64,000 nucleotides of DNA from Gemmatimonadales bacterium. GTDB lineage: Bacteria > Gemmatimonadota > Gemmatimonadetes > Gemmatimonadales > Gemmatimonadaceae. Numbering within the stretch: position 1 is the first letter of the stretch; every line of letters begins with the position of its first letter. The notes beneath the pieces are model-generated. The model was not told where the DNA came from. It did not search any database and saw only the letters and a program-made list of their open reading frames with translations. The position numbers and the translations under genes are program-made. Positions 22,836-39,846 of the stretch are shown one piece after another. Location: NCBI GenBank assembly GCA_038330215.1, contig JBBQNT010000001.1:1356-65355 (forward strand), read 5' to 3'.

Positions 22836-23942
22836 ATGCAAAATTCAGCCCTGAGCTACGAGCCATCTGAGTTTGCGTTGATCGCACGCCTGGCCCGTGA
22901 CATCGGGCGGCCGATCTGCGTGCTCGATGTCGAAACGACCGGTCTGCCGAGCGACAAGACGCCGGTAGCGCTCGTTGAGTTTGGGTACGTCGTCGTCACC
23001 TCAGACAACGAGGTAAAAGTTGCCGGCACGCTCGTGAATCCGCAGGTGACCATTCCATGGCACGCAACCAAGATCCATGGCATCCAAGATCGCGACGTAC
23101 GCGACGCGCCGCATTTCACGGCGATCGCGCCGGCGATCGCCGCCATGTTCGGTAAGTTTGCAATCGTGGGATTCAACAGTACGGCGTTCGACGTTCGTGT
23201 TCTGCAGGAGAATCTTGCGCGAGCAGGCCAGCCCTGCGACGCACCGGCGGTGCAGCTCGATATTCGTGACGTGTGGCGAACCAACGGCCACGGCGAGCGC
23301 GGCAAGCTTGCTGACCTGGCGCTGCACTACGGCGTCGACCAGGTGAGCGCACATCGCGCCGTTGGCGACGCATTGACCACTGCACGAATTCTCGACGCCA
23401 TGATCTATCGTCATGGCGCAGACGATGTCCGCCGCAGCTTGATCGAGACGCTCACGGTTCATTGCGCCGCGGCCGAGGAAACCTCTCAGCGCCGCGCCCC
23501 TGCAGCGGAGGCTTCTGTAAGAGGCGCCGGCGCCGCCGGCCGGCGCCCCCTGCAGGAGCGCGGTGGCATCTCGATCAAGAATGCGATCGCGCAGCATATC
23601 GAGCACGCCAATCGCATCTCGCCGGCGGACTACGACACGATTGCCGCACGCTGCGGCGTGAAGCCAGCGTCAGTGTCGTTCCAGTTGTCCGAAATGATCA
23701 CAAATGGCGATGTCGCCCCGGAGCATGCAGCTGACCAGCGTGTTCAGACGCTGATCGCCGTGCACCTGGCGGCTGCCCGGCGTCAAGCGGGCGGTACGTC
23801 CCTCCTGAAGCCTCTTAAGGCAGCTCTCGACGCCCTGGCGGGCATCAACGTCGACTACGTCCAGCTGCGCATCGCACTGCTCGCGCACGGGCAGGAGCCA
23901 TCAGCTGCCCATGGCTCGCGCGGCGGGCCTTCGATGCGGTGA
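22836..23942 (+). CDS. DnaQ-like 3'-5' exonuclease (DEDDh) with C-terminal extension
   Basis: Exo I VLDVETTGL, Exo II GFNSTAFDVRVL, Exo III HRAVGDALTTARIL. Confidence 0.85.
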   Translation: MQNSALSYEPSEFALIARLARDIGRPICVLDVETTGLPSDKTPVALVEFGYVVVTSDNEVKVAGTLVNPQVTIPWHATKIHGIQDRDVRDAPHFTAIAPAIAAMFGKFAIVGFNSTAFDVRVLQENLARAGQPCDAPAVQLDIRDVWRTNGHGERGKLADLALHYGVDQVSAHRAVGDALTTARILDAMIYRHGADDVRRSLIETLTVHCAAAEETSQRRAPAAEASVRGAGAAGRRPLQERGGISIKNAIAQHIEHANRISPADYDTIAARCGVKPASVSFQLSEMITNGDVAPEHAADQRVQTLIAVHLAAARRQAGGTSLLKPLKAALDALAGINVDYVQLRIALLAHGQEPSAAHGSRGGPSMR

Positions 23943-26084: not shown

Positions 26085-26342
26085 ATGAGCCACGACCACC
26101 GTCGTGCAATGCCCAACCCGAACTCCACGTTGCTGACCAGCGCGATCGTCGGTGGCTTCGGGATCGACATTCCACCAGAACATGTGGTGCCGCCACCGGG
26201 CATGGGGGTCATCATGCTGTTCGTGCCATTGGAAAAGGTCGTGGGTCAGACCGCCCCGGAGGTTCAAGATGACCTTGGCCTGCCGTGGTCGACGGGCGAT
26301 GGGAACGGTGTCTGGCTTGCGGACTTCCTCGGAAACACATAG
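26085..26342 (+). CDS. hypothetical protein (85 aa)
   Basis: Internal ATG of track ORF 25740..26342 with a gagga SD; 8 nt after the upstream stop. Confidence 0.35.
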   Translation: MSHDHRRAMPNPNSTLLTSAIVGGFGIDIPPEHVVPPPGMGVIMLFVPLEKVVGQTAPEVQDDLGLPWSTGDGNGVWLADFLGNT

Positions 26343-26668
26343 TTCCATGCCGCCCGCGGCCTATCGCGCATCCATGCGCATTGGCGCCATCCTTGCGCCT
26401 GCAGCCTCGTCCAGCGCGACTGTCGCCGACTAACCGCCGGCGATCCGCTCCGCGGACGTTTGGCAGGATGCGGTTGATAAGCAGTTCGTCAAAACTCGAA
26501 AGCGTAATGAGCGATCGAACTGGACTTGTATGAGATCGCGCGCTCAGTCGAAAGTATGTGGCGGTGCGCGATCCCGAGGGAGCGCCGGATTGCGATGAGC
26601 ACCTGATATGATGATCTTGGACGGCTGGTGCGGTGTGAAACAAATACTGCCACGACGAGGTCGTAAAT

Positions 26669-27199
26669 ATGGCGAATCCAGAGCCGCAATGGCAACCGAT
26701 CAGCGTCCTTCCTGCAATTGCTCTTGTGCTCGCGGAGCAGAGTGCGGAGACGGACAAGCAACTCGTCTCCCTGAAAGGCACTTGTGATCGACCTGCTGCG
26801 CTCGATAGCGCAACCATCGAGAATGTTGTGCGTGTCTATTCGGAGCAGGCAACTTTTGTGGATTTGTATCTGCAGCAGCTTGAACGATGGAAAGGCGATG
26901 CAACCACCGAGCTGTTGCGAGGTGAGGTTTATCGACTTGAGGGAGTTGCCCGCCATCTAAGTCGCACAGTGGACGAAATCCTAAGTGTTGCATCGACGCT
27001 CGCTGAGGCGTGCATCGATCGCGTGATGGAGAAAAATGACATTGAGCAAGCGATTGATTTTCTTTCCAGCGCAATTCAGGAAAGGAAACAGGTTCGCGCC
27101 CATCATGAGCATTTTAGGAGCCCTGGCGCCCGCGATGGCGATAGCGAAGGACCAACTCTGAACATCACTGATACGGAGAAGAGCCATACTCGGCCATGA
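26669..27199 (+). CDS. hypothetical helical protein (176 aa) in the lower-GC patch
   Basis: Protein-like composition; no motif recognised. Confidence 0.55.
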   Translation: MANPEPQWQPISVLPAIALVLAEQSAETDKQLVSLKGTCDRPAALDSATIENVVRVYSEQATFVDLYLQQLERWKGDATTELLRGEVYRLEGVARHLSRTVDEILSVASTLAEACIDRVMEKNDIEQAIDFLSSAIQERKQVRAHHEHFRSPGARDGDSEGPTLNITDTEKSHTRP

Positions 27200-27232
27200 A
27201 CAGCCCAGAATTCGCTCGGATCTACTTAGAGC

Positions 27233-27712
27233 TCAGGAGCACAGCAGTTCAACTGCCATACGACGGCCGTCGCGCCAGATCATCACCGGTGCGTAGTAGC
27301 CAGGATAGATCCGCGCATCGCGATCCTGCAGCTCGCTTCGCCGAAGATCCGCCAGGCGCGCCAACGTCCGCTCGATCCTGTCGCCGGCGATGCGCTTGCT
27401 CTCGACGGCCGCTTTCGTCGTCTTGGCCAGAAGACCGCGCTCAGCATCCGCCAGGCGTTTTTTCTGCTTGAACACCTCCTACTCAAGCGCGGAGGCCTGT
27501 TCGGTATTGAAGTGATCGATCAGCTGCTTGATCTCGCGTTCGGCATCCGTCCGCGGCGCTGCGAACGACGCATCCATGGCCTTCGGCGTCTTGATCTTCG
27601 GATCTCGGGCGCGCTTCACGTAGAGCTCGAAATACTCACCGATGCTGAGGTCCGCACCGTAGACGTGCACATACGCACGCCACTCCGCCCATACCATCGC
27701 CGAATAGCACAC
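27233..27712 (-). pseudogene. possible SRAP (YedK/DUF159)-like gene, interrupted by an in-frame amber codon and C-terminally truncated
   Basis: GTG-TGC start gives MCYSAMVWAEW... (Cys2), with a gaggg SD 7 nt upstream. Track ORFs 27479..27775 and 27233..27475 are in the same frame, separated by TAG (27479-27481). IYPGYYAPVMIW resembles the SRAP (Y/F)PG..AP(V/I) motif (from memory). Confidence 0.35.
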
Positions 27713-28174
27713 GTGCCAGCCCTCGCGCTGCCGATACCGAATCCTAACGCCAGCGACGGAGTAGGGCAGGCACACCTGATCGAATCGCCGCCGCCCACGT
27801 AGGAAATCTCTGAGGAACCCTTCGGAACCGTCGGAGCTGCGCCTAAGATTCCGCCCAACAAGACATCCGCTTCATGCCAGCCGTCCGCGTCAAACAATGC
27901 TCCATGGCACGCCGATGCGGCTCTTACAGCCCTAGCCAGTTAGACATCATTCTTTCCATTATTGCCACTATAGCTTCCACTGTGGTCACGCTCTTCACTA
28001 ACCTTCTGATGTTAATAAAATAAGACCATGCAGTCATTGTGCATCAGATGAGACAAATGCAGGAATCCTGCATCAGCTAGAGCAATACTGGAATTCACAG
28101 CAGCCGTTATGATCCGGTGGGATTTCAGTGGTTTAGCACATTGGCGCATAACGCGCACAACCCTGCCTCGTCAT

Positions 28175-28207
28175 GCACATATTGTGCATCGGATGCACAA
28201 TATGTGC
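28175..28207. repeat. near-perfect 33-bp palindrome GCACATATTGTGCATC-g-GATGCACAATATGTGC in a non-coding region
   Basis: Read directly. The half-site ATTGTGCATC recurs at 28036-28045. A second 7-1-7 palindrome, TGCAGGA-a-TCCTGCA, is at 28058-28072. Confidence 0.9.
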
Positions 28208-28567
28208 GTTTAATGAGCAAATTGTGTGTATAGTGGGGCTACGACAGTGGTGTTTTGACCTGTCGCACCCACCTCGCAGGTGCTCTGCGTTATGACCAAG
28301 AAGCCGACACTCCACGTCGTCCGCTGAGTTGCCCCATACCCAGTAATGCTGGAAAGATCAGCAGCGGAATATGGCCACGCGAAACCGGAACGGCGAGCCA
28401 GCTGCTCCGAAATCCGCATCCGTCCGTTCCCGCGAAGAGAACTCGTCTGTTCTAAGTCCGGAACCTCAACCTGACACTTTCGCTTCGGACGCCGCAAGCC
28501 GTAGTTTCCAGCAGACAAATTCTTCGACCGGCAAACACCTCTGATTAGACGTGCCAACAAACCGCCG

Positions 28568-28798
28568 TCAATTCGTCGGTTCGAGTTCGTTGTCATCAGT
28601 AGCAGCTTCCTCGGCATGCTGTTTTGCAATGGCTGCGAAGACGCGTTCGACGACTTTGCCGCCGTGATCACATGCCATCGTCGCAGCCACGCGCTCCAGC
28701 ATGTGTTGGTAACCGGCAATTCCACCACCGGGCGTACAGGCGTTCGTCGCGTCGATGAACGCCCACAAAGCTTGATCAACCATCTTCTTGCGGGCCAC
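28568..28798 (-). CDS. hypothetical small protein (76 aa)
   Basis: Last ORF of the minus-strand cargo operon; plausible composition. Confidence 0.45.
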   Translation of the reverse strand: MARKKMVDQALWAFIDATNACTPGGGIAGYQHMLERVAATMACDHGGKVVERVFAAIAKQHAEEAATDDNELEPTN

Positions 28799-28863
28799 CG
28801 GTCATACCTCCTGCGACTATTGAAGCTTCAACAAAGAGAGCGTGTTCTTCCGCGTGGTAGCTT

Positions 28864-29196
28864 TCAGCAGCACCGTCGAAACCAGGCTCGTAGGTGCGTA
28901 GCGCACATTTGGTGAACCTCACCGAAATCATTGTGAATGCCAACAAATGGCGGGTTTGCTATTGGGTGCATCGATTCGACAACATAAATCTCGCCGGCGG
29001 TGAAAACCCGTGGTTCGTCCGGGTCTTCCTCCATATGCAAATGATGTATCGCGCGAAGCCTTGTGCCTGGTGTCATGTCCCAGACCAAACGATGATCCGC
29101 ACCTATGTAAGCCCCGCTCCTCGAAGCGCCCGAATGTGCGTTGCTGGTCATGGCGAAAGGTCCTTGCCGAGGGCAATTGTAGGATTTGGCAATCAC
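28864..29196 (-). CDS. hypothetical protein (start uncertain; alternative ATG at 29151)
   Basis: ORF track; aagga SD precedes the internal ATG. Confidence 0.45.
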   Translation of the reverse strand: MIAKSYNCPRQGPFAMTSNAHSGASRSGAYIGADHRLVWDMTPGTRLRAIHHLHMEEDPDEPRVFTAGEIYVVESMHPIANPPFVGIHNDFGEVHQMCATHLRAWFRRCC

Positions 29197-29206
29197 GCGT
29201 TTCGGA

Positions 29207-29887
29207 TCAAGTCAGCTTCGGAAACGGCATGACCTGGCCACCCTTGGATCCGGTCTCCGTGAAGGCCAGGTTGCCGGCGAGCGTCGCATCTTGTTTGGTG
29301 CGGGATCCACTATTTAGCGTCTGCGCGAGGCGGGCCACTTGGCGCGCGAGCTGCTGCACGTCGTGCTCAATGAGGGCGGGATCAAACGCCGGCGACGGAC
29401 CACGTTCCCCCTGCGGTTCCTTGCACTCAACACGCCACTTCAGCAAACCCGCGGTAAACCAGCCAGAGGTCTCCCAAACGTAGCGAAGACGCGAGTCGGT
29501 GCCTTCCGCACGCGGTGCAAGCAGCCCCTGGGCGTCGATTAACGCGCTTAGCTGCTGCATAGATTCGACGGGTCGGGTGTCGCGCGATCCCTGCGTGCCG
29601 ATCGGTGTCTTGAGGGTGATCAGTGGACCACCCAGCGTCGTGCCGAAACCGCTGTCCCAACCCCGGTCACGCACTGTATCGCAGCGCACACCGGGGAGCT
29701 GGTTCAGCGCGTCGACGAGGGGACGCATCCGGCTGGTGACGTCTACGGCCGAATCGGTCGAACTGCCGTACGGGGTTGAGGCGCGCCGAGCGAGCGTCGA
29801 CCGAATGAGCCGAATGCCTATCACTACTAGCACCAGCAGCAGGAGAAGGTTCATGATGGCTTGGACGGTGCTGGCATCGATGGGCAT
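29207..29887 (-). CDS. membrane-anchored hypothetical protein (226 aa)
   Basis: Internal ATG of track ORF 29207..30013 with an aagga SD. N-terminal TM helix AIMNLLLLLVLVVIGIRLI. Confidence 0.5.
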   Translation of the reverse strand: MPIDASTVQAIMNLLLLLVLVVIGIRLIRSTLARRASTPYGSSTDSAVDVTSRMRPLVDALNQLPGVRCDTVRDRGWDSGFGTTLGGPLITLKTPIGTQGSRDTRPVESMQQLSALIDAQGLLAPRAEGTDSRLRYVWETSGWFTAGLLKWRVECKEPQGERGPSPAFDPALIEHDVQQLARQVARLAQTLNSGSRTKQDATLAGNLAFTETGSKGGQVMPFPKLT

Positions 29888-30009
29888 GGCGGGATCCTTG
29901 AGTGAGGGAACGGGCTGCGCTCGTGCAGACTGGCGACAGCCTGTCGCAGCTCCTGCGAATACGAGACCGCAATAGTCTGTCTCTTTGAAACACCCACACG
30001 GACTGTTTC

Positions 30010-30579
30010 TCAATAGTTTTCTTGAGCTGCCTCCTCCTCTTCGCTGAGATCATGCAGCCACTGGCGTTCCTCGTCGACGATCCCCAGCACCACATCGACT
30101 GCCGGGATGCCGGCGCGATCAAGAGTGACAATGCCACTCGATGTTTCGATGGAGTCGAACTGGCTATGTTCGGCGCCGCCGCGGAAGGCCAGGCTCATGC
30201 GCAGCGTGACCATATCGACGATCGCGGTGTACAGCCGGTCGTAGTCGTATCTTAGACGCGCATAGTCGCAATCAGAAGCGCTACAGAGCAGCGCTACAGA
30301 GCCTCCCTCCGAGATCCACTGCGTCGCTACGTGGACCTCAGCTGTGAATGCACCACTCCCGTCATTGAGCCAGCCCTTCACTGCGCCCAGCGGACGCAGG
30401 AGTATGTCGACCGGCACGCCCCGGTTGTTCCAACGGCTTGCCACCACGCTATCCGTTGCGATTACGCGTGTGGCGGTATTCAACCAACGCGTAGCCGCTT
30501 CCCAAAGCGTTGAAGGATCCATGATCGGCGCGGAGAGCCCAGGCAGGGAATCTGCTGCCCGGACGGTCTTCCAGCTCAT
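30010..30579 (-). CDS. hypothetical protein (189 aa), translationally coupled to the zinc peptidase gene
   Basis: ATGA overlap with the upstream gene; acidic C-terminus. Confidence 0.55.
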   Translation of the reverse strand: MSWKTVRAADSLPGLSAPIMDPSTLWEAATRWLNTATRVIATDSVVASRWNNRGVPVDILLRPLGAVKGWLNDGSGAFTAEVHVATQWISEGGSVALLCSASDCDYARLRYDYDRLYTAIVDMVTLRMSLAFRGGAEHSQFDSIETSSGIVTLDRAGIPAVDVVLGIVDEERQWLHDLSEEEEAAQENY

Positions 30580-31469
30580 GAGGACACCTCACGCTTACCT
30601 GTACGGAAAGCGAGTAGGGCGCCGTCGAGGATGGTCTGAAACGAATCACCATCCAGCTCACTGGTCAGCGAGTGTTGCCCAAGATGGAAGTGCATCGCAA
30701 TCGCACACAACGTGTAGGCCAGTCCATCGAGATCTACCTTGGCGTCATTGAGACAATCAAATATCCGTGCGCTCGTGGGCGGATGCGTACCAAGATAGGT
30801 GCCGCTGCCCTGCGGTTCGTCCAGGAACTGCATCGACAGCAGAGCGATCGCCATTCCAAGCTGTCGCTTTGTCCGCATCTGCGCATCTGCGCACGCACCC
30901 AAGACCCAGCCGACCGCATCGGCATCGGCTTCGCGTTCCTGTTGGTTGGTGTAGATCCGATGCGCCTGGGCATGGTTTCTGCGCAGATGCGCAATCTCGT
31001 GATGGAGGATCCAGCCGATCGCAACAAGAAACAGCTCATCGGTGCATGACGAGGTCTCGATACTTGGCTGCGGTGCGTCCTGTGGCCACAACCCGGTGCC
31101 CTCATAGAGCATGTTGTTCAACGCCCAATTGAACAGATCGAGTCGAGTGCAGAATTCAGGATCGCCGGCGAGACTCACGGCTTCGTACCCAAGCGCCTGC
31201 TTTTCCTCGAACACCGCGTAGAGTCGAAGCAACATGTGGGTGCAAGCCCAGACGTATTCGAGCGTCGCGATCGGCAAGGTCACCACGTAGGTTTCCGTGT
31301 TCACGCGCACACCGAAGCGCTTTTCTCCCGCAGCAAATATGATTGAGACATTCGCAGTGCTAGCGATGTAAGCGGCTTCGCGTTCCGGTGCCACAGTGTA
31401 GGCAGAAGCTGCTATGGCCTTTTCCAAGGACATGATCGGCGATCGGTACGGCGACTCAGAGCTTTTCAT
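30576..31469 (-). CDS. zinc metallopeptidase (HExxH), Lit (peptidase U49)- or ImmA/IrrE-like
   Basis: ILHHEIAHLRRNH followed by QQEREADADA (HExxH...ExEAD). 297 aa, with HExxH at residues 157-161. Confidence 0.7.
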   Translation of the reverse strand: MKSSESPYRSPIMSLEKAIAASAYTVAPEREAAYIASTANVSIIFAAGEKRFGVRVNTETYVVTLPIATLEYVWACTHMLLRLYAVFEEKQALGYEAVSLAGDPEFCTRLDLFNWALNNMLYEGTGLWPQDAPQPSIETSSCTDELFLVAIGWILHHEIAHLRRNHAQAHRIYTNQQEREADADAVGWVLGACADAQMRTKRQLGMAIALLSMQFLDEPQGSGTYLGTHPPTSARIFDCLNDAKVDLDGLAYTLCAIAMHFHLGQHSLTSELDGDSFQTILDGALLAFRTGKREVSS

Positions 31470-31515
31470 CGGCGGTGTCCTTGATGGATCGGATCGTTGG
31501 TCAGTGTTTTGACCT

Positions 31516-33108
31516 CTACTGCACCCGGTTGCTCACGTCAGGCGGAACGTAGATGTGGCCGTGGGACGCATCCGGTCCGCTCGCCAGATCACTGCCGACC
31601 AAGATTGGTTTGATCCATATCCGACGTCGACTTGCCCGTTGTTGGCCATATGGTTGCATCCTCCAATGGCCGCGCCGCCAGTGAACGCGTACACCGCCTC
31701 CGATCTCGCCGCTTGCTTGCGCGGGAGGCCCGTCTACTTCTCCCCCTACCAAGCGAACGACAGCAAATCCGTCTGATGTAAGTGCCGAATTCAGCTTGTA
31801 GCGCTTGGCAGGACTATTCATCCATTTCGCAACGCGATCAGGTGGTGTGTCCCGACCAGGCGTGGGTTCAGGGAGATGATGCTCGATGCTTTCAAGATAA
31901 AACAGGCTGTTGAAAAGCAATGCTGCGCAGTGCCGCATCAATACCGCAGAGTCTTCGATTTCAGCACGCAGGTAAGACTTCAAAGCTCGGGAATTGTCGT
32001 CGGCGGCGGGGTCGTCCGCATCCTCTTGGAGACGGCGCTTCATCGACGCCTCGATCGCCTCAGGTACCGCCATTTGCAACTCATGGGGCAAGAGGTCGAA
32101 AAACATGCCAGGGTATCCAACCTGTCGGCCGTCGCTGTGCACTGTAACGAATCCCACTTTCAGTCGCTTCGCACCGGCAGCGTCCCAAGGCGCGTAAGCA
32201 ACGTAAGCTCCATCGACATACTCGAACGTGCCTACGGCTTCGTCAAAGGGGAGGCGGATCTGTTCTTGCAAGCCAAAGCGCACAAAGAAGGCTTCGTACG
32301 GCGTATGAAGGTCAGACAGTGTTGCGTCCTTGACATCGGTGTGCGTGAGCAATTCTGTCAATCGATCATGCAGATCAAAGATTTGCCGGCCGTTACCCTC
32401 GAACTGCGCGATCAAGGGCACCCACTTCTCGTAGCTGACAATCTTGGCGGCGGTTTCTCCCAAAGCTCCAGGCGGTACCTCGCCCCGCTTTGTTGCTGCG
32501 AATAGTCCATCCAGCATGGGATGGATGAGAGATTCACGCAGGTGCGGGTAGAAGTTGGACGCAACCATTCCGTCCGGCGTTACCCAGCCTTTGCGAGCCG
32601 CATCACGTGCTATGAACCATGAAGGCGTATTTCGCATGCGGATGGGAGCGTAAGGCGAACGCTCCTCCGCACTGCTGGCGTCGGGCGTCTGCGCAGTGGC
32701 GTGAGGTTGGTCATGTGCAAGATCGTTGACCTTTGCGAAGAGATTGGCCAGGGCCTCTTTGATCCCTTCGAGTATCGGAGCGAGTTCCTGCGCGGTAACC
32801 TTCCGCACCTCAATGCCGTGCTGTCGACCGACCTCAGCAAACGTGTTCTCAGGGGATGCGCCTTCCTCCAGCAGCAGCATTTTGGGCCACTGCTTTCGCT
32901 CGCGCCATCCCTTTGCAAACAAATGGGAGACCATCTGAATGTCGGGCGCTTCCATGCCAACTGGCGCGACGGCGCGACCGATGATGTAGGTGCTCGCCGC
33001 GTCCATCAACAAATACATATTGAACGCTCCTTCCGCCAGAAGCAGCGGCGCGTCGTTCGCTTTCACCGCGAGCCAGGCTTGATTCACTCGAAATTGGTCA
33101 GGACGCAT
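31516..33108 (-). CDS. hypothetical protein (530 aa) directly downstream of the integrase gene
   Basis: Long ORF with good composition. Conspicuous basic C-terminal motif VRVHWRRGHWRMQPYG...RRRIWIKPILVG. No family recognised. Confidence 0.65.
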   Translation of the reverse strand: MRPDQFRVNQAWLAVKANDAPLLLAEGAFNMYLLMDAASTYIIGRAVAPVGMEAPDIQMVSHLFAKGWRERKQWPKMLLLEEGASPENTFAEVGRQHGIEVRKVTAQELAPILEGIKEALANLFAKVNDLAHDQPHATAQTPDASSAEERSPYAPIRMRNTPSWFIARDAARKGWVTPDGMVASNFYPHLRESLIHPMLDGLFAATKRGEVPPGALGETAAKIVSYEKWVPLIAQFEGNGRQIFDLHDRLTELLTHTDVKDATLSDLHTPYEAFFVRFGLQEQIRLPFDEAVGTFEYVDGAYVAYAPWDAAGAKRLKVGFVTVHSDGRQVGYPGMFFDLLPHELQMAVPEAIEASMKRRLQEDADDPAADDNSRALKSYLRAEIEDSAVLMRHCAALLFNSLFYLESIEHHLPEPTPGRDTPPDRVAKWMNSPAKRYKLNSALTSDGFAVVRLVGGEVDGPPAQASGEIGGGVRVHWRRGHWRMQPYGQQRASRRRIWIKPILVGSDLASGPDASHGHIYVPPDVSNRVQ

Positions 33109-33158
33109 TGGGTCACTCCTCGAATATGTCTTTTGTTATCAAAGCCCGCGATGGATGC

Positions 33159-34361
33159 TCATGCTTTGTCGTCAGCTAGCCGCTTCGTCAGTCCTGGTGC
33201 TGGTAACGGCTGTTGTTCACGAGCGATTGCCATCGCGGTGTCCACAGTCAACAATTCTCTGGCGTAGTAGTTGACCATCGCATCGTTCGCCCAGCCGGCG
33301 GCCCGAGCGATCGCTGAACCGGAGTGACCTTGCGCGACCAGGTCATGCGTTGATCCGACGCGAGTTGAATGACCACTGATCCGGGACGCATCGATGCCGG
33401 CCTGTTGCAGGCGACGTTTGAAGATTCGCGCGACCTCCTGTGGTGCGATCGCGTTCGGGCTGATCTCGGCAGTGCGCATGGTGCGAAGCGAACCATGCTT
33501 GCGCTTCGCCTCTTTTCCGCGCTTGGCGGAGCGCAAGCGCACGGCGCGGAACAAGGGGCCACGCTCAAGGCCTGCGGCCTGGATCCAGCGATCGATGTAT
33601 TCCATCGTCGCAGCACTGACGTGGCGTAGCAGGCCGTGACCCTCGCCGTCGGTTTTTGAACTCGGGATCTCCAGCCTACCCGCGCCGCCGTCAAGACGCG
33701 TGAGTTCCGAGATCCGGACCCGTGCGATCTCCTCGCGGCGTGCCAGCGTATCGGACGCCAAGCACATCAGCGCCGCATCACGCAGGGCACGCAGATCGCC
33801 GTCAAGAGCTTGCAGCACGGCCGTCAACTGGGCCTGCCGCAATGGGGCCGCCGGCCGTTTCCGATTGCGGCCGTCCTTCGCGAGCTGGCGGGCGATGCCT
33901 TTCCAGATCAGAGTCCACATCGGATGCGCGGTGGGATCTGGCACGCCGGCGGCGCGGTGCGCCAGGCGGATGGTCGACAGGTACCGATCAAGAGTGGCGC
34001 GGCGCAAGCCTCTGTCGATCGCGTTTTGGAAGAACTGCTGCAGATCCGTTCGCGCTTTGGTTTCTGCCTTGATGCGCTCGGCCGGCGCCGTCGACGGCGC
34101 AATGTACACCAGAGGCGGGACGCCGGCGTTGCGGCACCAGGTGGCGTACGTGGTCCAGTCACCGCGTACCGCACGCACGGTGGACTCCGACATGGCGACC
34201 TCGTATTGGCGCGTAAACTCCCGCAAACGATCGGCGACTTCGGACGGCAGCAGCGGCACATGGCCATCGACGGTCATCGGCAGCAGCGCGTCGACCACTA
34301 CCAGCGCGTGATCGACGATTGCCGGTGCCGGCGAATCCAGTGCGGGCTCAGTGCTTGGCAT
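33159..34361 (-). CDS. tyrosine recombinase / phage-type integrase
   Basis: LASDTLARREEI (Arg), HSTRVGSTHDL (HxxR) and AMVNYYAR (catalytic Tyr region); SAM-like N-terminal domain. Confidence 0.85.
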   Translation of the reverse strand: MPSTEPALDSPAPAIVDHALVVVDALLPMTVDGHVPLLPSEVADRLREFTRQYEVAMSESTVRAVRGDWTTYATWCRNAGVPPLVYIAPSTAPAERIKAETKARTDLQQFFQNAIDRGLRRATLDRYLSTIRLAHRAAGVPDPTAHPMWTLIWKGIARQLAKDGRNRKRPAAPLRQAQLTAVLQALDGDLRALRDAALMCLASDTLARREEIARVRISELTRLDGGAGRLEIPSSKTDGEGHGLLRHVSAATMEYIDRWIQAAGLERGPLFRAVRLRSAKRGKEAKRKHGSLRTMRTAEISPNAIAPQEVARIFKRRLQQAGIDASRISGHSTRVGSTHDLVAQGHSGSAIARAAGWANDAMVNYYARELLTVDTAMAIAREQQPLPAPGLTKRLADDKA

Positions 34362-35247
34362 GGTGATTTCCTCGGCGTTGCCACGCGAGCGCGATCACAC
34401 GCTGCGGATCCGCACGAAAGACGTCGGCGGGTGTGCGCATGCCCAGCGCGGGATCGGGAGCGAACAACCAGAGCGTGGCCGATCGGCCACTACCATCCGC
34501 ATCGTGGGGCAGCACTTCGACCAGTGCGGCCGTATCAGACAACGGCTGGCCTGCCGCGTCGAACTGGAAGTCGGGATAGCGATAGGCATTGCCGTCCCAC
34601 ACACCGAAAATCCGGCCCTTCTGGCGAGCGCGGGTGGCCACCATCTTGGGGTTGCTGTGATGGGTCGTGCGCGCCAGCGCAATGCCCACGGCTACGCTGT
34701 CGCGAAATCGCTCTGTCTGCCTGAGGATCCTGTCCAACATGTCCTCATCATCTTCCTGCGCAGGCTGCGGTGGTCCGCGAAGGACACGACGTGGCGTCGC
34801 CGGCGACGTGTCCGTCAGCAGAGTCGTCCAGCGCGCTACCGTCTCGCGATATCGTGTCCGTTCCTGCTCGGGCGGGATCGCGATGTCGAGCACCCACATT
34901 GGCGCCGAGATCTCGGCCTGTGCCTTCAGCGCACCGATCGTCGACTGCAGCAGCCGCGGCGCGCTGCTGACCTCCCAGCGGATCGACCAGTGCCAATGGG
35001 CGTCTTCCTGCAGACCGTCATGCATCAGGCTGCTGTGCAGCAGCTTCAGCGCCTTCTGGCGCAGCCGCAGCACGCCTTCCCAGGTGAGGCCTTGGTCGTC
35101 CGGCGACGTAAGTTCGATCAGCCGGAAACACGGCGCTGCGTGCGTTTCCTGCAGGACGGCGTCGAGGCTTGGGAATGCGAACTGCGCCACGCGAAGCCGA
35201 GGCTCGCCGCCGGCGAGTTCGAGCAGGCGGATCGCCGCGGTGATCAT
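34348..35247 (-). CDS. hypothetical protein with DUF2384 (Xre/MbcA/ParS antitoxin-type)-like C-terminus
   Basis: TLWLFAPDPALGMRTPADVFRADPQRVIALAW resembles W...P...LgG.tP.dll...p..V..l (from memory). Overlaps the integrase start by 14 nt. Confidence 0.5.
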   Translation of the reverse strand: MITAAIRLLELAGGEPRLRVAQFAFPSLDAVLQETHAAPCFRLIELTSPDDQGLTWEGVLRLRQKALKLLHSSLMHDGLQEDAHWHWSIRWEVSSAPRLLQSTIGALKAQAEISAPMWVLDIAIPPEQERTRYRETVARWTTLLTDTSPATPRRVLRGPPQPAQEDDEDMLDRILRQTERFRDSVAVGIALARTTHHSNPKMVATRARQKGRIFGVWDGNAYRYPDFQFDAAGQPLSDTAALVEVLPHDADGSGRSATLWLFAPDPALGMRTPADVFRADPQRVIALAWQRRGNHHAKH

Positions 35248-35253
35248 CGCAGG

Positions 35254-35529
35254 CTAGGCCCGCGCGCGGACGCGCGTCAGGCCGCGTTTGTGGGCCTGCG
35301 CGTTCTCGCGAAGGTTCTGGATGCCATTGCCATCGGTTAGCCAGCTCTTCACTTCCTGCAGCTCGCGTTGGTCGATCGCCGCGATGACGTGCGCCAGATC
35401 GGCGACAGCCTGCTTCTGCGCGATCTCATCGTTGCGGTAGGCGGTCAGAACGGCGCCGAGGTAGTGGCCAAGGGCGTCGTGGTCGCTCTCCGTGAGCACG
35501 CCGGCGGCGTTGAGGTCGTTCATCGGCAA
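35254..35529 (-). CDS. hypothetical small protein (91 aa), first gene of the integrase operon
   Basis: ORF track; TTG or ATG start; helical composition. Confidence 0.5.
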   Translation of the reverse strand: MPMNDLNAAGVLTESDHDALGHYLGAVLTAYRNDEIAQKQAVADLAHVIAAIDQRELQEVKSWLTDGNGIQNLRENAQAHKRGLTRVRARA

Positions 35530-35570
35530 TTTCCTTCGGTTGGGGGTGCCACGTCAGGTTATCCAAACGC

Positions 35571-35714
35571 GTTACGCGGCGCAATGCGCGCTAAGTATGC
35601 TTATCGTGCATGCGTTGCGGGTTCGGTTCGATGGTAACAGCAAGGGTAACGATATCTCCATAAATGCCGCCTCTAGGTGGATTAATCACATATTATAGGT
35701 TACGCTATGGTAAC
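35571..35714. repeat. cluster of GGTAAC/GGTTAC/GTTACG hexamers (5 copies) in the divergent intergenic region
   Basis: GGTAAC at 35633, 35645 and 35709; GGTTAC at 35698; GTTACG at 35571. The pairs are spaced 11-12 bp apart. Confidence 0.4.
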
Positions 35715-35774
35715 GCCAACCCCACCGGAACCACCGTGCACACCTTGCCCCACACCCCACCGCCGGTCGTCAGC

Positions 35775-36848
35775 ATGGCGACCGTCTTGGCAGTGCTGCC
35801 CACCCTCGATCGCGTCACGGTGCGCTCCGTCCGCGCTGCGCTCGGCAACCGCGGCTCGATGCGTGACATCGGCCGCGTACTCCGGGAGGTTCGCAAGACG
35901 CCCGCCGAGCAGCTGCGCGACGCGCTGGCGCACAAGGAGAAGCCACCAGGCGACGCGATCGTCGATGCACTGCATCACATGGAGGAGCAGCTGCTGGAGC
36001 CCCTACGGCAACTGCAGCGCGATCGAACGACGGCTTCAGGCGTCAACGTGGTCATCGGTGTCCGCGAGGAGCTGCGTCACCTGCGTGCGCTGATCGAGCG
36101 GATGCCGGCGTCGACGTCCAAGGTCGACGACGATCACGCGATCGACAATCGCTTGGCCGCGTTGCTCGTGCCCTGGCTGGCGCGCATCGAAACGGCGCTG
36201 ACGAAGCAATCGGCGACGCCGGCGATCAACCAGCTCACCCAACGGATCCAGACGCTGGAGCAGACGGTCCGACAGCGCGACCTCGAACTGCCGGCCGAGC
36301 TGCGTCAGTTGCAGATGCGGGTGGAGGCGATTGGTCACCAGGTCTACACCGGCACGCTGCAAATCGAGACACAGATCGCGGCCGCGGCCGACACGGCAGT
36401 CGTCCATCACCAGGCCCTCGCGGATCTCGACGTGCGCGTGGCCAACGCCCATCACGACCTGGTCGAGCGCCACGCGCACCAGTCACGCCGACTCGCCGAG
36501 TCAGAAGCCGCGCGAGTCCTGGATGCCGGTCATCTGCACCAGCACCTGGCGGCCCTGCGAACGGATCTGGCCAACACCGCCAAGGCCCAGCAGACCGAGC
36601 AGCGTGGCCAGCAGACGCGTCTACGGCGTGTGTTGAGGGATTTGGCGCTGACGCAGTTGCACACTGCTGCTGGTATCGCTGCGGCCGTCAGTCGTCGGCC
36701 CGCGAAGTCGAAGGCAGCCCTCCGACCCACGCGACGTCGCGCTTCAACGGTGAACACGCGGGGCAACGACGGCGCACAACGAAAGCGTTCATCGAAACCG
36801 ATCGGTAAAGCGCAATCCATGAAGCGGCGCAGTCGCCCGAAGAGGTAG
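35775..36848 (+). CDS. KfrA-like DNA-binding coiled-coil protein (start uncertain; track ORF begins at 35664)
   Basis: RVTVRSVRAALGNRGSMRDIGRVLREVRK resembles the KfrA N-terminal DNA-binding domain. The rest is long Ala/Gln/Arg-rich helical sequence. Confidence 0.55.
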   Translation: MATVLAVLPTLDRVTVRSVRAALGNRGSMRDIGRVLREVRKTPAEQLRDALAHKEKPPGDAIVDALHHMEEQLLEPLRQLQRDRTTASGVNVVIGVREELRHLRALIERMPASTSKVDDDHAIDNRLAALLVPWLARIETALTKQSATPAINQLTQRIQTLEQTVRQRDLELPAELRQLQMRVEAIGHQVYTGTLQIETQIAAAADTAVVHHQALADLDVRVANAHHDLVERHAHQSRRLAESEAARVLDAGHLHQHLAALRTDLANTAKAQQTEQRGQQTRLRRVLRDLALTQLHTAAGIAAAVSRRPAKSKAALRPTRRRASTVNTRGNDGAQRKRSSKPIGKAQSMKRRSRPKR

Positions 36849-37290
36849 CTCTCAGTTAAAAGTAGCCGGTCCAGGTCTTCGTCATGCCGGACAGAGCGCA
36901 GTGATCATCTGAGTCGGAATGGGAGTCCAGAAAGTTCCTTCCGGAACTGGTGTTCATGACCAACCGGGATTTCCACCCACTACAACGCTGGGGCGACTTG
37001 TTCGCTGACGCTACAAGTTGGAGGTGGTTTGTTGACGTTTCTGCAAATTGGGGGCGTTTGACGGCGCCTTTGTGGTCGGTTGTTCGTCGCGGCGGAGGCA
37101 GTTGTTCGGCACAGACAGAGGGCGGATTCAATGCGGCGCGGAACCGGTTGTATACTGTTCCTGCGCATGCCGGCGTACGCTTGCCCACCTTGGGCGCACC
37201 CGAACGGGACGGTGTTTGACCCACCCTCGGTGATTCCTTCGCTGCGGCTGGTCGTGGGCAACCAGCGAGCAGTTCTTGAAGGACTGATCC

Positions 37291-38028
37291 GTGAATGCGA
37301 TCGAGATTTCCAAGTTACGGCAAACTGCCCGTCAACTGAAACGCAGCACTGGCGTTACGCACTATGAGGCGCTGGACAATGTGGCACGCGAGCATGGCTA
37401 CGAGAGGTGGTCTGCGTTGATCGCATCATCAAGGTTTGATGCTGCGCTTCTTGCTCATGAAGAAAGCGAATTGCAGAGGGTTACCGCGCTGTCTCGTGCA
37501 CCTGCGATAGCTCAACCAACTCCAAAGTCGTGGTCGTGCGTATTTCACCACGTCCGAATCGAAGCGATGGTGTTTCGTGCGTTCGCGACAGATGAAGGGC
37601 CCTACCTGAATGGCGCCGTCCATTCCTTCAAGTCATTGGAAGGTGGAGGTCAGGTTGCTCTCGGTGTTTGCGGCATCGTCCGCTTTGAAGAAGACGTAGC
37701 GTACATGAGAGTAAGCGCCGGTGAGTGGTGGGTCTGCAAGTACACGCGGGAGTCACGAATCCCTGTAAGCGCGCTTTCGCCGCAAGGGCGAAATGCGCTG
37801 GCGTACGAGTTCGGAATCGCACACGGACCAACGGGAATCTCCGACGACCACGGCAGGCGTTTTCTGAAGTCGCCTGCCTTTTCGTCACTGAAAGAGTGGG
37901 TTCGTTTGCATCCCCGATTGGCGCGCACCCTGTCCAAATCGCACGCGCCCTATGTTCCCGGATGGTACGAGTATGCCACTGATCAGGAGCCGCCTTGGAC
38001 TTTACGAAATATAAGGGATAAGCCGTGA
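37291..38028 (+). CDS. hypothetical protein (245 aa)
   Basis: GTG start. N-terminal motif ISKLRQTARQLKRSTGVTHYEALDNVAREHGYERWSAL is shared in pattern with the 41102 gene. Confidence 0.55.
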   Translation: MNAIEISKLRQTARQLKRSTGVTHYEALDNVAREHGYERWSALIASSRFDAALLAHEESELQRVTALSRAPAIAQPTPKSWSCVFHHVRIEAMVFRAFATDEGPYLNGAVHSFKSLEGGGQVALGVCGIVRFEEDVAYMRVSAGEWWVCKYTRESRIPVSALSPQGRNALAYEFGIAHGPTGISDDHGRRFLKSPAFSSLKEWVRLHPRLARTLSKSHAPYVPGWYEYATDQEPPWTLRNIRDKP

Positions 38029-39036: not shown

Positions 39037-39846
39037 CTACGTCGGCGACTTCCGACGGGAATACATGCGTCGTTGACGCATTGAATCCAAACCATTCCGT
39101 GTTTGCTGAAGCTCCTGGTGCTCTGAGGCGAGCACGTCGTGCTGCTGTTCCGCACGCCGCCATGGGTGAGTATCCGCGGCAACCTTCATTCGTGAGCTGC
39201 CTCGACGAACAGTACCGCGAGGACTGGGCGTCAACGCGTCTTCTACACTCCAGCCATGCGCGAGGCGCGCTCGTATAGTGCTTTCTGGAATACACGTCTT
39301 TCGCGCCCAGTCAGCCAGGTGCATCGCTTCCCCACCAGCTTTCAAAACCCTCAGGTCATTGCGGCTCGCAATTCTCGCCTTCATCGCTGCGACGATGTTG
39401 CTCGGATCTCGAATTGTCATGGTGCGCGGAAACGTTATCCCGCACCGATCAGCAACGGCTTGAAGAGTAGTGGGTTCGACGCACAAGTCACGCGCGATCG
39501 CACCTCGGCTCAAACCGGATGCTGCCATCTCACGAAGAGTATCGGCGAGCCCAATCCCCGATATTGCGAGCAAGTGGCAGTCGAGAAGCGCGCTCCCAAC
39601 AGGGAGTCGATATCCACGTCGTGCCAGGGCTGCTTTCAATGTGCTGTGAGGTATTACGAGACGGATCGCCAATGCCTTCAACGTCATTCGTTCAGCCGCG
39701 GCACGACGAGCGAGAGCGACAATGGAGCACTTCGCCGCAGCTTGTATTCCCGGAATCGCGCTCGGAGCCTTCTGGACCCAGTGACGTGACGCAGTGAGCA
39801 CTTTACCTATCCGCGTGCCAGTACGCCGCCCAGGTCGAGCGCTCAT
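39037..39846 (-). CDS. multi-HTH DNA-binding protein (hypothetical)
   Basis: Several HTH-like segments, e.g. MTLKALAIRLVIPHSTLKAAL, LSRGAIARDLCVEPTTLQAV and HLADWARKTCIPESTIRARLAHGWSVEDAL. Confidence 0.55.
   Translation of the reverse strand: MSARPGRRTGTRIGKVLTASRHWVQKAPSAIPGIQAAAKCSIVALARRAAAERMTLKALAIRLVIPHSTLKAALARRGYRLPVGSALLDCHLLAISGIGLADTLREMAASGLSRGAIARDLCVEPTTLQAVADRCGITFPRTMTIRDPSNIVAAMKARIASRNDLRVLKAGGEAMHLADWARKTCIPESTIRARLAHGWSVEDALTPSPRGTVRRGSSRMKVAADTHPWRRAEQQHDVLASEHQELQQTRNGLDSMRQRRMYSRRKSPT

What the first reader, a model, noticed from the sequence alone, without database searches (positions are those of the whole stretch)
28568..33108. Integrase-adjacent lower-GC operon with a Lit/ImmA-like zinc peptidase and unknown partners, a candidate abortive-infection-type cargo
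The operon is on the minus strand and begins 50 bp downstream of the integrase gene. It encodes six products in order. First is a 530-aa protein with no recognisable family but a striking basic C-terminal motif (VRVHWRRGHWRMQPYG...RRRIWIKPILVG). Second is a 297-aa zinc peptidase (HEIAH at residues 157-161, then EREAD). Third is a translationally coupled 189-aa acidic protein. Fourth is a membrane-anchored 226-aa protein. The last two are small ORFs. From memory, the E. coli e14 Lit protease, which cleaves EF-Tu on T4 infection, is also about 297 aa with HExxH near residue 160. The size and motif position therefore fit a Lit (peptidase U49)-like exclusion protease at least as well as ImmA/IrrE. 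The peptidase has no fused or adjacent XRE partner, and its neighbours are unassigned. The region has visibly lower G+C than the transfer genes, as expected for acquired cargo.
Basis: partly seen in the sequence, partly recalled or inferred. Interest (0 to 1): 0.6.

Follow-up and report, generated by a model that had tools for sequence, protein, structure and literature searches.

The report
Lit protease beside AcrVA2-like gene
Next to the integrase of a conjugative mobile element lie a true relative of the phage-exclusion protease Lit, a relative of the anti-CRISPR AcrVA2 / fertility inhibitor FinQ, and four orphan genes; they are a mosaic of independent cargo genes and not a new multi-gene defence system.

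Summary
Six SD-preceded minus-strand ORFs (530, 297, 189, 226, 95-110 and 76 aa) start 50 bp after a tyrosine integrase.

- **297-aa protein.** It is a full-length Lit / Peptidase_U49 member (PADLOC Lit 4e-82; Pfam U49 6e-26; 32% identical to E. coli e14 Lit; HHEIxH and ExxxD invariant). There is no ImmA/M78 signal.
- **530-aa protein.** It is not family-less. Residues 148-530 are an AcrVA2/FinQ-like domain: all 118 homologues carry PF26125, and the top PDB fold match is AcrVA2 7CI1/7CI2.
- **No co-conserved core.** No neighbour of Lit recurs in 18 other Lit loci. An 88%-identical relative of the AcrVA2-like gene loses homology at that gene's stop codon. The 189-aa partner has no homologue among 1.84 billion representatives. 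The 226- and 76-aa proteins had no credible match in those searched.
- **GC.** The dip is modest (58.3% against 60.4% for the window).

Verdict: ordinary mosaic cargo, one defence gene plus one counter-defence or inter-element gene plus ORFans. It is a new member of known kinds. The scan has met AcrVA2-like genes many times on other DNA.

The parts
33159..34361 (-). Tyrosine integrase (400 aa), directly upstream of the cargo genes. Included as context, not as part of a system.
   Evidence: Pfam Phage_integrase 6.5e-15, PHROG 1 integrase 2e-19. A 50-nt gap separates it from the next gene.
31516..33108 (-). 530-aa AcrVA2/FinQ-family protein carrying an extra N-terminal domain.
   Evidence: 118 homologues all carry precomputed PF26125 'AcrVA2-like'. 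AF2 model pLDDT 84.9. Top PDB fold matches are AcrVA2 7ci2_A/7ci1_A, E 4e-6, prob 1.0. The only PDB profile hit is AcrVA2. GAGGAG Shine-Dalgarno.
32716..33108 (-). N-terminal domain (residues 1-131) with a predicted RNase H-like / retroviral-integrase-core fold. The first catalytic Asp is absent.
   Evidence: Secondary-structure order b-b-b-a-b-a-b-a. About 130-column Foldseek matches to integrase catalytic cores, E about 2e-3, prob 1.0. Weak in-register hhalign to the genome's own rve domains, P 0.012. Shared by only 4 of 118 homologues; D36 is invariant but the beta-1 Asp position is V/I/F.
31519..32667 (-). AcrVA2-like core (residues 148-530).
   Evidence: 48% identity to 383-aa homologue P0018 over residues 148-521. 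Most homologues are about 385 aa and begin here.
31666..31683 (-). H476-W-R478-R-G-H481, the family's functional H-x-R-x-x-H motif.
   Evidence: Aligns to AcrVA2 'HIRRGH' (H286/R288/H291) in the PDB profile hit. These residues are needed for mRNA down-regulation (preprint 10.1101/2022.11.29.518452). Invariant or near-invariant across 44 homologues.
31470..31515 (-). 46-nt spacer that marks a mosaic junction between the AcrVA2-like gene and lit.
   Evidence: Metagenome contig L032/L061 is 88% identical to window 33140-31513. Similarity stops at the stop codon and no lit follows.
30576..31469 (-). 297-aa Lit-family (Peptidase_U49) zinc metalloprotease.
   Evidence: PADLOC Lit 4.4e-82, positions 1-288 of 290. 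Pfam Peptidase_U49 6.1e-26, positions 1-202 of 202. NCBIfam Lit equivalog 124 bits, below its 274 cut-off. 32% identity and E 2e-47 to e14 Lit over 290 residues.
30987..31001 (-). HEIAH (residues 157-161), the zinc-binding/catalytic motif.
   Evidence: H156 H157 E158 I159 H161 are invariant in 14 Lit-family sequences including E. coli Lit.
30924..30938 (-). EREAD (residues 178-182), the second conserved acidic motif.
   Evidence: E178, A181 and D182 are invariant in alignment A2.
30010..30579 (-). 189-aa acidic ORFan, translationally coupled to lit (ATGA).
   Evidence: Only itself found in the 5.8-billion-cluster search. Exhaustive phmmer against 1.84 billion representatives also gave only itself; the other hits are FG-GAP repeat proteins. 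Coding-frame score +0.21 against about -0.27. AF2 pLDDT 41, uninformative. Marginal similarity to a 236-aa protein in L033.
29207..29887 (-). 226-aa basic protein with one N-terminal membrane anchor; no family.
   Evidence: No Pfam, PADLOC, NCBIfam or PHROG hit. No tblastn hit in 72,556 plasmids. Only chance-level hits in 400 genomes of the class.
28864..29151 (-). 95-aa protein (110 aa from the upstream GTG); small unknown gene.
   Evidence: 35% identity over 68 aa (E 6e-14 pairwise) to the ORF immediately upstream of the N-extended AcrVA2-like gene P0002 in L035.
28568..28798 (-). 76-aa protein, last gene of the run; no family.
   Evidence: AGGAGG Shine-Dalgarno 8 nt before the GTG. Best coding frame. 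No credible homologue in 400 genomes of the class.

Best explanation
The stretch is a mosaic accessory ('cargo') patch of a conjugative mobile element. Its genes were acquired separately and act separately, although they are probably co-transcribed.

(1) The 297-aa gene is an autonomous single-gene Lit-type abortive-infection protease. By analogy with e14 Lit, it would be a latent zinc protease. A short motif in a phage late protein (for T4, the Gol peptide of the major capsid protein, bound to EF-Tu) would switch it on. It would then cut EF-Tu, stop translation, and abort the infection of the cell that carries the element. This mechanism is inferred.

(2) The 530-aa gene is an AcrVA2/FinQ-family protein. 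By analogy with AcrVA2, it would bind one chosen target protein as it emerges from the ribosome and cause loss of that protein's mRNA. This would serve the element against a host defence or a rival plasmid or phage. This is also inferred, and the target is unknown. Its extra N-terminal RNase H-like domain lacks the first catalytic Asp. That domain is more likely a binding or recognition module than a nuclease.

(3) The 189-, 226-, 95- and 76-aa genes are lineage-restricted ORFans of unknown role. Lit family members elsewhere do not need them.
For: Lit identity:
- Full-length matches to PADLOC Lit (4.4e-82) and Pfam Peptidase_U49 (6.1e-26, above cut-off).
- 32% identity over 290 of 297 residues to E. 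coli e14 Lit, which is the same length.
- HHEIxH, E178 and D182 are invariant.

Lit autonomy:
- In 18 other Lit loci, no homologue of any window neighbour is present.
- In those loci no neighbour family recurs within 3.5 kb.
- Called genes show Lit followed by convergent, unrelated genes.
- U49 is sporadic: 6 of 301 genomes of the order.

AcrVA2-like identity:
- PF26125 on all 118 homologues.
- AF2 model with pLDDT 84.9.
- Top Foldseek PDB hits are the AcrVA2 crystal structures (E 4e-6, prob 1.0).
- The top viral hits are 320-420-aa phage proteins, including jumbo phages.
- The only PDB profile hit is AcrVA2, aligned at HWRRGH, which corresponds to H286/R288/H291. Mutation of those residues abolishes mRNA down-regulation.

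Mosaicism:
- AcrVA2-like homologues sit in unrelated mobile-element contexts without Lit.
- The 88%-identical relative loses similarity at the stop codon.

ORFan status.

Element context: TraG/TraD coupling protein, TopB, SprT-like protein, C5 methylases, HerA-like ATPase.
Against: - The ATGA overlap between lit and the 189-aa gene, the tight spacing, and the lack of a detectable promoter or terminator inside the run fit one transcription unit. A lineage-specific functional link therefore cannot be excluded.
- Absence of homologues for the small genes says nothing about their function.
- The Lit homologue scores below NCBI's equivalog cut-off (124 against 274 bits). Its trigger and even its substrate could differ from those of e14 Lit.
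- EF-Tu was not found in this 85%-complete MAG, so the target site could not be checked.
- The local Pfam copy lacks PF26125, so the window's own protein was placed in the family through its homologues, its predicted fold and the motif, not by a direct HMM score.
- Sequence-only evidence against the AcrVA2 crystal sequence is weak (E 0.93).
Confidence: 0.75

Rival explanations
1. Lit together with the translationally coupled 189-aa acidic protein, and perhaps the 226-aa membrane protein, forms a lineage-specific multi-gene abortive-infection module. The 189-aa protein could be an inhibitor or 'antitoxin' of the protease, or an adaptor that sets trigger specificity.
For: The ATGA stop/start overlap and good Shine-Dalgarno sequences. 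The coding-frame signal of the 189-aa ORF. An acidic partner (pI 4.5) next to a latent toxic protease resembles toxin-antitoxin layouts.
Against: None of 18 other Lit loci has a homologous or even an analogous coupled downstream gene. E. coli Lit works as a single gene (established knowledge; it is a single-gene system in PADLOC). The 189-aa protein has no relative among 1.84 billion representatives. Its only marginal similarity is to a gene beside a SprT-like gene in a related element (L033), not beside a Lit.
Confidence: 0.1
2. The whole six-gene run is one coordinated system. In it the AcrVA2-like protein controls Lit or a Lit target co-translationally, so that both act at the ribosome.
For: Both founding proteins act on translating ribosomes or nascent chains (for AcrVA2; established knowledge for Lit). 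The genes are adjacent on the same strand, 46 nt apart, with no terminator between them.
Against: The pairing is unique to this locus. Seven AcrVA2-like loci lack Lit and 18 Lit loci lack AcrVA2-like genes. In the closest relative, homology breaks exactly between the two genes.
Confidence: 0.05
3. The 297-aa protein is an ImmA/IrrE-type (M78) or other housekeeping metalloprotease, or an inactive remnant, and not a defence protease.
For: It contains an HExxH motif. There is a weak Peptidase_M48 hit (1e-4, 22.6 bits) over residues 175-236.
Against: No Peptidase_M78 hit at E <= 1. The U49 match is full length and about 70 bits stronger than the M48 match. All residues invariant in the family are intact. 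There is no adjacent XRE/HTH substrate gene. The gene is sporadic, as an accessory gene would be.
Confidence: 0.04

Closest known systems
Lit (cell-death peptidase, MEROPS U49 / Pfam PF10463) of E. coli K-12 cryptic prophage e14
   Same: Same length (297 aa) and alignable end to end at 32% identity. The HHEIxH and ExxxD motifs lie at the same positions. Both are stand-alone genes carried on a mobile element close to an integrase.
   Different: This protein is below NCBI's equivalog threshold, so it is a family member and not an orthologue. Its carrier looks like a conjugative element in a 65% GC environmental MAG, not a lambdoid prophage remnant. It is followed by a translationally coupled ORFan. 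Its trigger and substrate are untested.
AcrVA2 (Moraxella bovoculi prophage anti-CRISPR; PDB 7CI1/7CI2) and its homologue FinQ of E. coli IncI/F-like plasmids; Pfam PF26125 AcrVA2-like
   Same: Same predicted fold for residues 148-530. The C-terminal H-x-R-x-x-H needed for mRNA down-regulation is conserved. It is carried on a mobile element in a genome where no Cas12a was found, which the preprint says is typical of the family.
   Different: Only about 15% identity to AcrVA2. An extra 131-residue N-terminal RNase H-like domain is shared by only 4 of 118 homologues. The target is unknown. The Cas12a search is inconclusive because the control genomes did not ring and the MAG is 85% complete.
Anti-defence / accessory gene islands of conjugative plasmids and ICEs
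   Same: A mix of counter-defence, defence and small unknown genes, with different content in related elements. Neighbours include a SprT-like protein, methylases and TopB.
   Different: The position relative to oriT or the leading end was not determined here.

Membership tests
Lit / Peptidase_U49 | Full-length match to the family profile above the curated threshold | tested here: met
   Pfam PF10463 at 91.8 bits against a cut-off of 23.9, profile positions 1-202 of 202. PADLOC Lit at 273.6 bits, positions 1-288 of 290.
Lit / Peptidase_U49 | HExxH zinc/catalytic motif at the position of E. coli Lit H160-E161-x-x-H164 | tested here: met
   H157-E158-I-A-H161 aligns with E. coli HHEISH and is invariant in 14 sequences.
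Lit / Peptidase_U49 | Downstream conserved E...D (EREAD) block and C-terminal THP motif | tested here: met
   E178, A181, D182, H229 and P230 are invariant in A2.
Lit / Peptidase_U49 | Orthology with e14 Lit (NCBIfam equivalog NF007238) | tested here: not met
   123.9 bits against a cut-off of 274. It is a family member, not an equivalog.
Lit / Peptidase_U49 | Acts as a single gene without a dedicated partner | tested here: inconclusive
   Eighteen other loci show no conserved neighbour. Here, however, a coupled ORFan follows, and function was not tested.
Lit / Peptidase_U49 | Cleaves EF-Tu (Gly59-Ile60 in E. coli) when triggered by a phage capsid peptide | not testable with these tools
   This needs biochemistry. 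The host tuf gene is not even in the MAG assembly.
AcrVA2/FinQ-like (PF26125) | Profile match to PF26125 | tested here: inconclusive
   All 118 homologues, including one 95% identical, carry the precomputed PF26125 hit. The local Pfam copy returns nothing for the query or for its homologues, so the model seems absent from that copy.
AcrVA2/FinQ-like (PF26125) | Fold of the AcrVA2 crystal structure | tested here: met
   Foldseek against PDB ranks 7ci2_A, 7ci1_A and 7ci1_B at 1-3, with E 4e-6 to 8e-6, prob 1.00 and TM(target) 0.43-0.45.
AcrVA2/FinQ-like (PF26125) | Conserved C-terminal H-x-R-x-x-H (AcrVA2 H286/R288/H291) | tested here: met
   H476-W-R478-R-G-H481 aligns to HIRRGH of 7ci1_A and is conserved in 44 homologues.
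AcrVA2/FinQ-like (PF26125) | Translation-dependent down-regulation of a specific target mRNA | not testable with these tools
   This needs expression, RNA-seq and pull-down experiments.
ImmA/IrrE (Peptidase_M78) | M78 profile match and an adjacent or fused XRE-type repressor | tested here: not met
   No M78 hit at E <= 1. No HTH gene lies in the run.
DDE/RNase H-like integrase core (rve), for the N-terminal domain of the 530-aa protein | RNase H-like fold together with an intact D-D-E triad | tested here: not met
   The fold is supported. The beta-1 Asp position, however, is V/I/F in all five N-extended proteins, and the second acidic position is not conserved. There is no Pfam hit.

The most novel reading that the evidence does not exclude
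Two unusual features of this locus could be functional and not accidental.

(a) A small subfamily of AcrVA2/FinQ-like proteins has recruited a catalytically degenerate RNase H / integrase-core domain at the N-terminus. The family normally places its variable, target-recognising part there. This could redirect nascent-chain-coupled mRNA silencing to a new kind of target, for example a transposase or integrase partner, or nucleic acid.

(b) This Lit could be kept in check or tuned by the translationally coupled acidic ORFan. That would make it the first two-component Lit.
Probability: 0.1. Interest if true: 0.55.

Novelty: new member of a known kind. Interest (0 to 1): 0.3.

Why it matters
The result places a distant Lit homologue (32% identical to the only studied one) on a conjugative element of an environmental, 65% GC proteobacterial MAG. 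It also shows, across 18 loci, that Lit-family genes travel as single-gene cassettes. Lit remains one of the least explored classical abortive-infection proteins, so this is useful for annotation and for choosing homologues to test.

It also assigns the largest 'unknown' gene to the AcrVA2/FinQ family. It records a rare N-terminal RNase H-like extension, which could help in working out how this family chooses or processes its targets.

None of this changes current concepts. It is a defence gene next to a counter-defence gene in mobile-element cargo.

Tried and rejected
- **ImmA/IrrE reading.** Rejected: there is no M78 hit.
- **Co-conserved three-gene core.** Rejected by tblastn of all window proteins against 7 AcrVA2-like and 18 Lit loci, and by all-against-all clustering of Lit neighbours.
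- **Pattern scan of genome contigs with the single Lit protein.** Found nothing. It was repeated with alignment A2.
- **DNA-level relatives of window 26300-37300.** None in 60 related genomes and none in 72,556 plasmids.
- **Structure of the 189-aa protein.** The single-sequence AF2 model has pLDDT 41, so no fold search was attempted. Its weak hits in the exhaustive search are FG-GAP repeat proteins and were dismissed as repeat or composition matches.
- **N-terminal domain of the 530-aa protein.** No Pfam hit even at E <= 10.
- **phmmer of the 530-aa and 297-aa proteins against PDB sequences.** No hits.
- **EF-Tu target site in the host.** The tuf gene was not found in the assembly; only LepA- and BipA-type RGITI motifs were seen.
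- **Cas12a in the host.** No match, but the control genomes did not ring either, so the result is inconclusive.
- **Promoter and terminator scan.** Counts are at shuffle level. The only candidates are a promoter-like site at 35719-35692 (-) and two weak hairpins after 28568.

Full report
**1. Observation**

The six minus-strand ORFs exist as described.

| Product | Coordinates | Note |
|---|---|---|
| 530 aa | 31516-33108 | |
| 297 aa | 30576-31469 | |
| 189 aa | 30010-30579 | |
| 226 aa | 29207-29887 | from the ATG; 268 aa from an upstream TTG |
| 110 aa | 28864-29196 | more likely 95 aa from the ATG at 29151 |
| 76 aa | 28568-28798 | |

- The integrase (33159-34361; Pfam Phage_integrase 6.5e-15) ends 50 nt before the first ORF.
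- Every ORF has a Shine-Dalgarno-like sequence at a proper distance. The stop of the 297-aa gene overlaps the start of the 189-aa gene as ATGA.
- I built a codon-usage score from 839 long ORFs of the same genome. It prefers the annotated frame for all ORFs except the 110-aa one. That ORF has a 35%-identical relative elsewhere, so it too is probably real.
- HEIAH (residues 157-161), EREAD (residues 178-182) and the basic C-terminal motif of the 530-aa protein are all present.
- The 189-aa protein has pI 4.5. The 226-aa protein has pI 9.4 and one N-terminal hydrophobic helix.
- The G+C dip is real but small. The region is 58.3% against 60.4% for the window (sd 1.4%, 10th percentile of same-sized windows). 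The whole window is itself lower than the 64.9% genome.
- Promoter-like and terminator-like hits are at shuffle level. The only candidate promoter on this strand lies upstream of the 91-aa gene at 35719-35692. The integrase and the cargo may therefore be read as one long transcript. This is inference only.

**2. The 297-aa protein is a Lit-family protease**

- PADLOC's Lit model matches end to end (4.4e-82, 273.6 bits, positions 1-288 of 290).
- Pfam Peptidase_U49 matches over its whole length (6.1e-26). No Peptidase_M78 (ImmA/IrrE) hit appears even at E <= 1.
- I fetched lit of E. coli K-12 e14 (297 aa, next to intE). The two proteins align over 290 residues at 32% identity, E 2e-47.
- In an alignment of 14 family members, H156, H157, E158, I159, H161, E178, A181, D182, H229 and P230 are invariant. 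The catalytic apparatus is therefore intact.
- The score against NCBI's Lit equivalog model is below its cut-off (124 against 274 bits). It is a family member and not an orthologue.
- Its nearest relatives are 64% identical (a 2-kb metagenome contig) and at most 46% identical (Lysobacter, Stenotrophomonas, Rhodanobacter, Caballeronia).
- U49 genes are sporadic: 6 of 301 genomes sampled from the same order.

**3. The 530-aa protein is an AcrVA2/FinQ-family protein**

- All 118 homologues found carry a precomputed Pfam hit PF26125. The context tables name it 'AcrVA2-like'.
- The local Pfam copy lacks the model: neither the query nor its homologues give a hit. I therefore tested the assignment independently.
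- A 44-sequence alignment (A1) gave an AlphaFold2 model with mean pLDDT 84.9.
- Foldseek against the PDB ranks the AcrVA2 crystal structures 7ci2_A, 7ci1_A and 7ci1_B first (E 4e-6 to 8e-6, prob 1.0).
- The best viral matches are 320-420-aa uncharacterised phage proteins, including jumbo Erwinia and Dickeya phages.
- A profile of A1 against all PDB sequences hits only AcrVA2. The E-value is weak (0.93), but the alignment falls exactly on '...HWRRGHWR...' against 'HIRRGHWH'.
- The AcrVA2 preprint (10.1101/2022.11.29.518452) reports three relevant points. H286, R288 and H291 are the residues needed for mRNA down-regulation. The HxR motif is conserved in orthologues including FinQ. Homologues are widespread on mobile elements, usually without Cas12a in the host.
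It is invariant or nearly so in A1.
- On plasmids, relatives occur on large, mostly conjugative replicons of Rhodanobacter, Pseudomonas and Rhodoferax, where they are annotated as hypothetical.

**4. An extra N-terminal domain**

- Most homologues are about 385 aa and start at residue 148 of this protein. Only P0002 and P0005-P0007 share the first 147 residues.
- The model gives this part the strand/helix order b-b-b-a-b-a-b-a.
- After the AcrVA2 hits, both fold searches list dozens of integrase catalytic cores with about 130 aligned columns (E about 2e-3, prob 1.0).
- A shallow profile-profile comparison with rve domains taken from this genome's own transposases aligns in the expected register, with P only 0.012.
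- The beta-1 catalytic Asp position is V, I or F in all five proteins. The second acidic position is not conserved. There is no Pfam hit.
- I read this as a catalytically degenerate RNase H-like module. It replaces or extends the variable N-terminal part, where the preprint says the predicted AcrVA2 and FinQ structures diverge. This reading is inferred.

**5. The neighbours are not a conserved system**

- Seven loci with AcrVA2-like genes show unrelated mobile-element neighbourhoods and no Lit (L001-L004, L032-L035). The neighbours include H-NS, methylases, HipA and SprT-like genes.
- Eighteen loci with Lit genes contain no homologue of any window neighbour (L005-L008, L016-L031).
- All-against-all clustering of every ORF of at least 70 aa within 3.5 kb of Lit finds no family shared by more than two loci, and none that includes the window.
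- In the called-gene tables, Lit is typically followed by convergent genes.
- The closest relative of the AcrVA2-like gene is an environmental contig that is 88% identical in DNA. It matches window 33140-31513 and then diverges completely at the stop codon. This places a recombination junction in the 46-nt spacer before lit.
- The 189-aa protein has no homologue in the 5.8-billion-cluster search. It also has none in an exhaustive phmmer run over 1.84 billion representatives; the three weak hits there are FG-GAP repeat proteins.
- The 226- and 76-aa proteins give only chance-level hits in 400 genomes of the class, and none on plasmids for the 226-aa protein.
- The single-sequence structure prediction of the 189-aa protein was uninformative (pLDDT 41).
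- Two faint links point to the element's own gene pool and not to Lit. First, the 95-aa protein resembles the ORF just upstream of the N-extended AcrVA2-like gene in L035. Second, the 189-aa protein contains two copies of a roughly 30-residue motif. That motif weakly resembles the N-terminus of a 236-aa protein in L033 that lies beside a SprT-like gene and an AcrVA2-like gene (pairwise E 8e-6, picked post hoc).

**6. Mechanism**

- What is shown: family membership, intact motifs, autonomy of Lit cassettes, mosaic structure, and a mobile-element context. That context includes a TraG/TraD coupling protein, TopB, a SprT-like protein, two C5 methylases, a HerA-like ATPase and a 2048-aa helicase.
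- What is inferred for Lit: it works like e14 Lit, a latent protease that cuts EF-Tu when a phage late protein supplies the trigger, giving abortive infection.
- What is inferred for the 530-aa protein: it works like AcrVA2 or FinQ, silencing one target co-translationally for the benefit of the element.
- No Cas12a was detected in the MAG. That search is inconclusive because the controls did not ring and the MAG is 85% complete.
- The translational coupling of the 189-aa gene to lit keeps open a lineage-specific partner role, which I put at about 10%.

**7. Comparison and novelty**

- Both large genes belong to described families: Lit/U49, and AcrVA2/FinQ (PF26125).
- Earlier notes of this scan record AcrVA2-like genes in more than 70 other genomes, including fusions to other N-terminal modules. 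They also record several Lit-like single-gene cassettes. The kind has therefore been met before on other DNA.
- What is new here is limited to three things: a distant Lit on a conjugative element, a rare RNase H-like N-terminal extension on an AcrVA2-like protein, and four ORFans.

**8. Verdict**

This is a new member of known kinds, with interest 0.3.

Noticed in passing
window 28864-29151 (-) and L035:213-512: The small 95/110-aa protein has a 35%-identical relative (pairwise E 6e-14) lying immediately upstream of another N-terminally extended AcrVA2-like gene (P0002). This is a second, independent adjacency of the two families, in a different order.
   Followed up: partly
window 30010-30579 (-); L033:4278-4988: The 189-aa ORFan contains two copies of a roughly 30-residue motif (W-L/I-N...VA..W...G..V, residues 32-62 and 69-100). 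Both copies weakly match the N-terminus of a 236-aa protein that sits beside a SprT-like gene and an AcrVA2-like gene in L033 (pairwise E 8e-6, post hoc).
   Followed up: partly
window 40234-40736 and L033:3576-4075: The SprT-like gene of the window (39843-40865) is 68% identical in DNA to the SprT-like gene that lies convergent to an AcrVA2-like gene (71% aa identity) in metagenome contig L033. This suggests a related element family with rearranged cargo.
   Followed up: no
L032 / L061 (metagenome contigs, 88% identical to window 33140-31513): In the closest relative, the AcrVA2-like reading frame is broken by single-base deletions in short homopolymer runs in the N-terminal domain and linker. 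The two database copies of the contig differ from each other by one indel. I cannot tell assembly error from decay.
   Followed up: partly
L015 (E. coli e14) and L006: The lit genes of e14 and of metagenome contig L006 also lie close to a tyrosine integrase gene, as in the window. An integrase-proximal cargo slot seems to be a recurrent home for Lit cassettes.
   Followed up: no
window 21172-22545 and 22836-23942 (+): The HerA-like ATPase hits PADLOC mad8, HerA and DndH models (best 2.8e-20). The DEDDh exonuclease downstream hits PADLOC PDC-S48 (2.6e-29). This is a possible defence or counter-defence module elsewhere in the element.
   Followed up: no
window 35692-35719 (-): This is the best sigma-70-like site of the region (TTGGCG-16-TATAAT, 10 of 12), upstream of the 91-aa gene. 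No comparable site or convincing terminator lies between it and 28568. The 91-aa, 299-aa, integrase and cargo genes may therefore be one transcript.
   Followed up: no
whole window against the genome: The entire 64-kb window is 60.4% GC against 64.9% for the 4.24-Mb MAG. No DNA-level relative was found in 60 related genomes. The whole element looks foreign to this genome, not only the cargo patch.
   Followed up: partly
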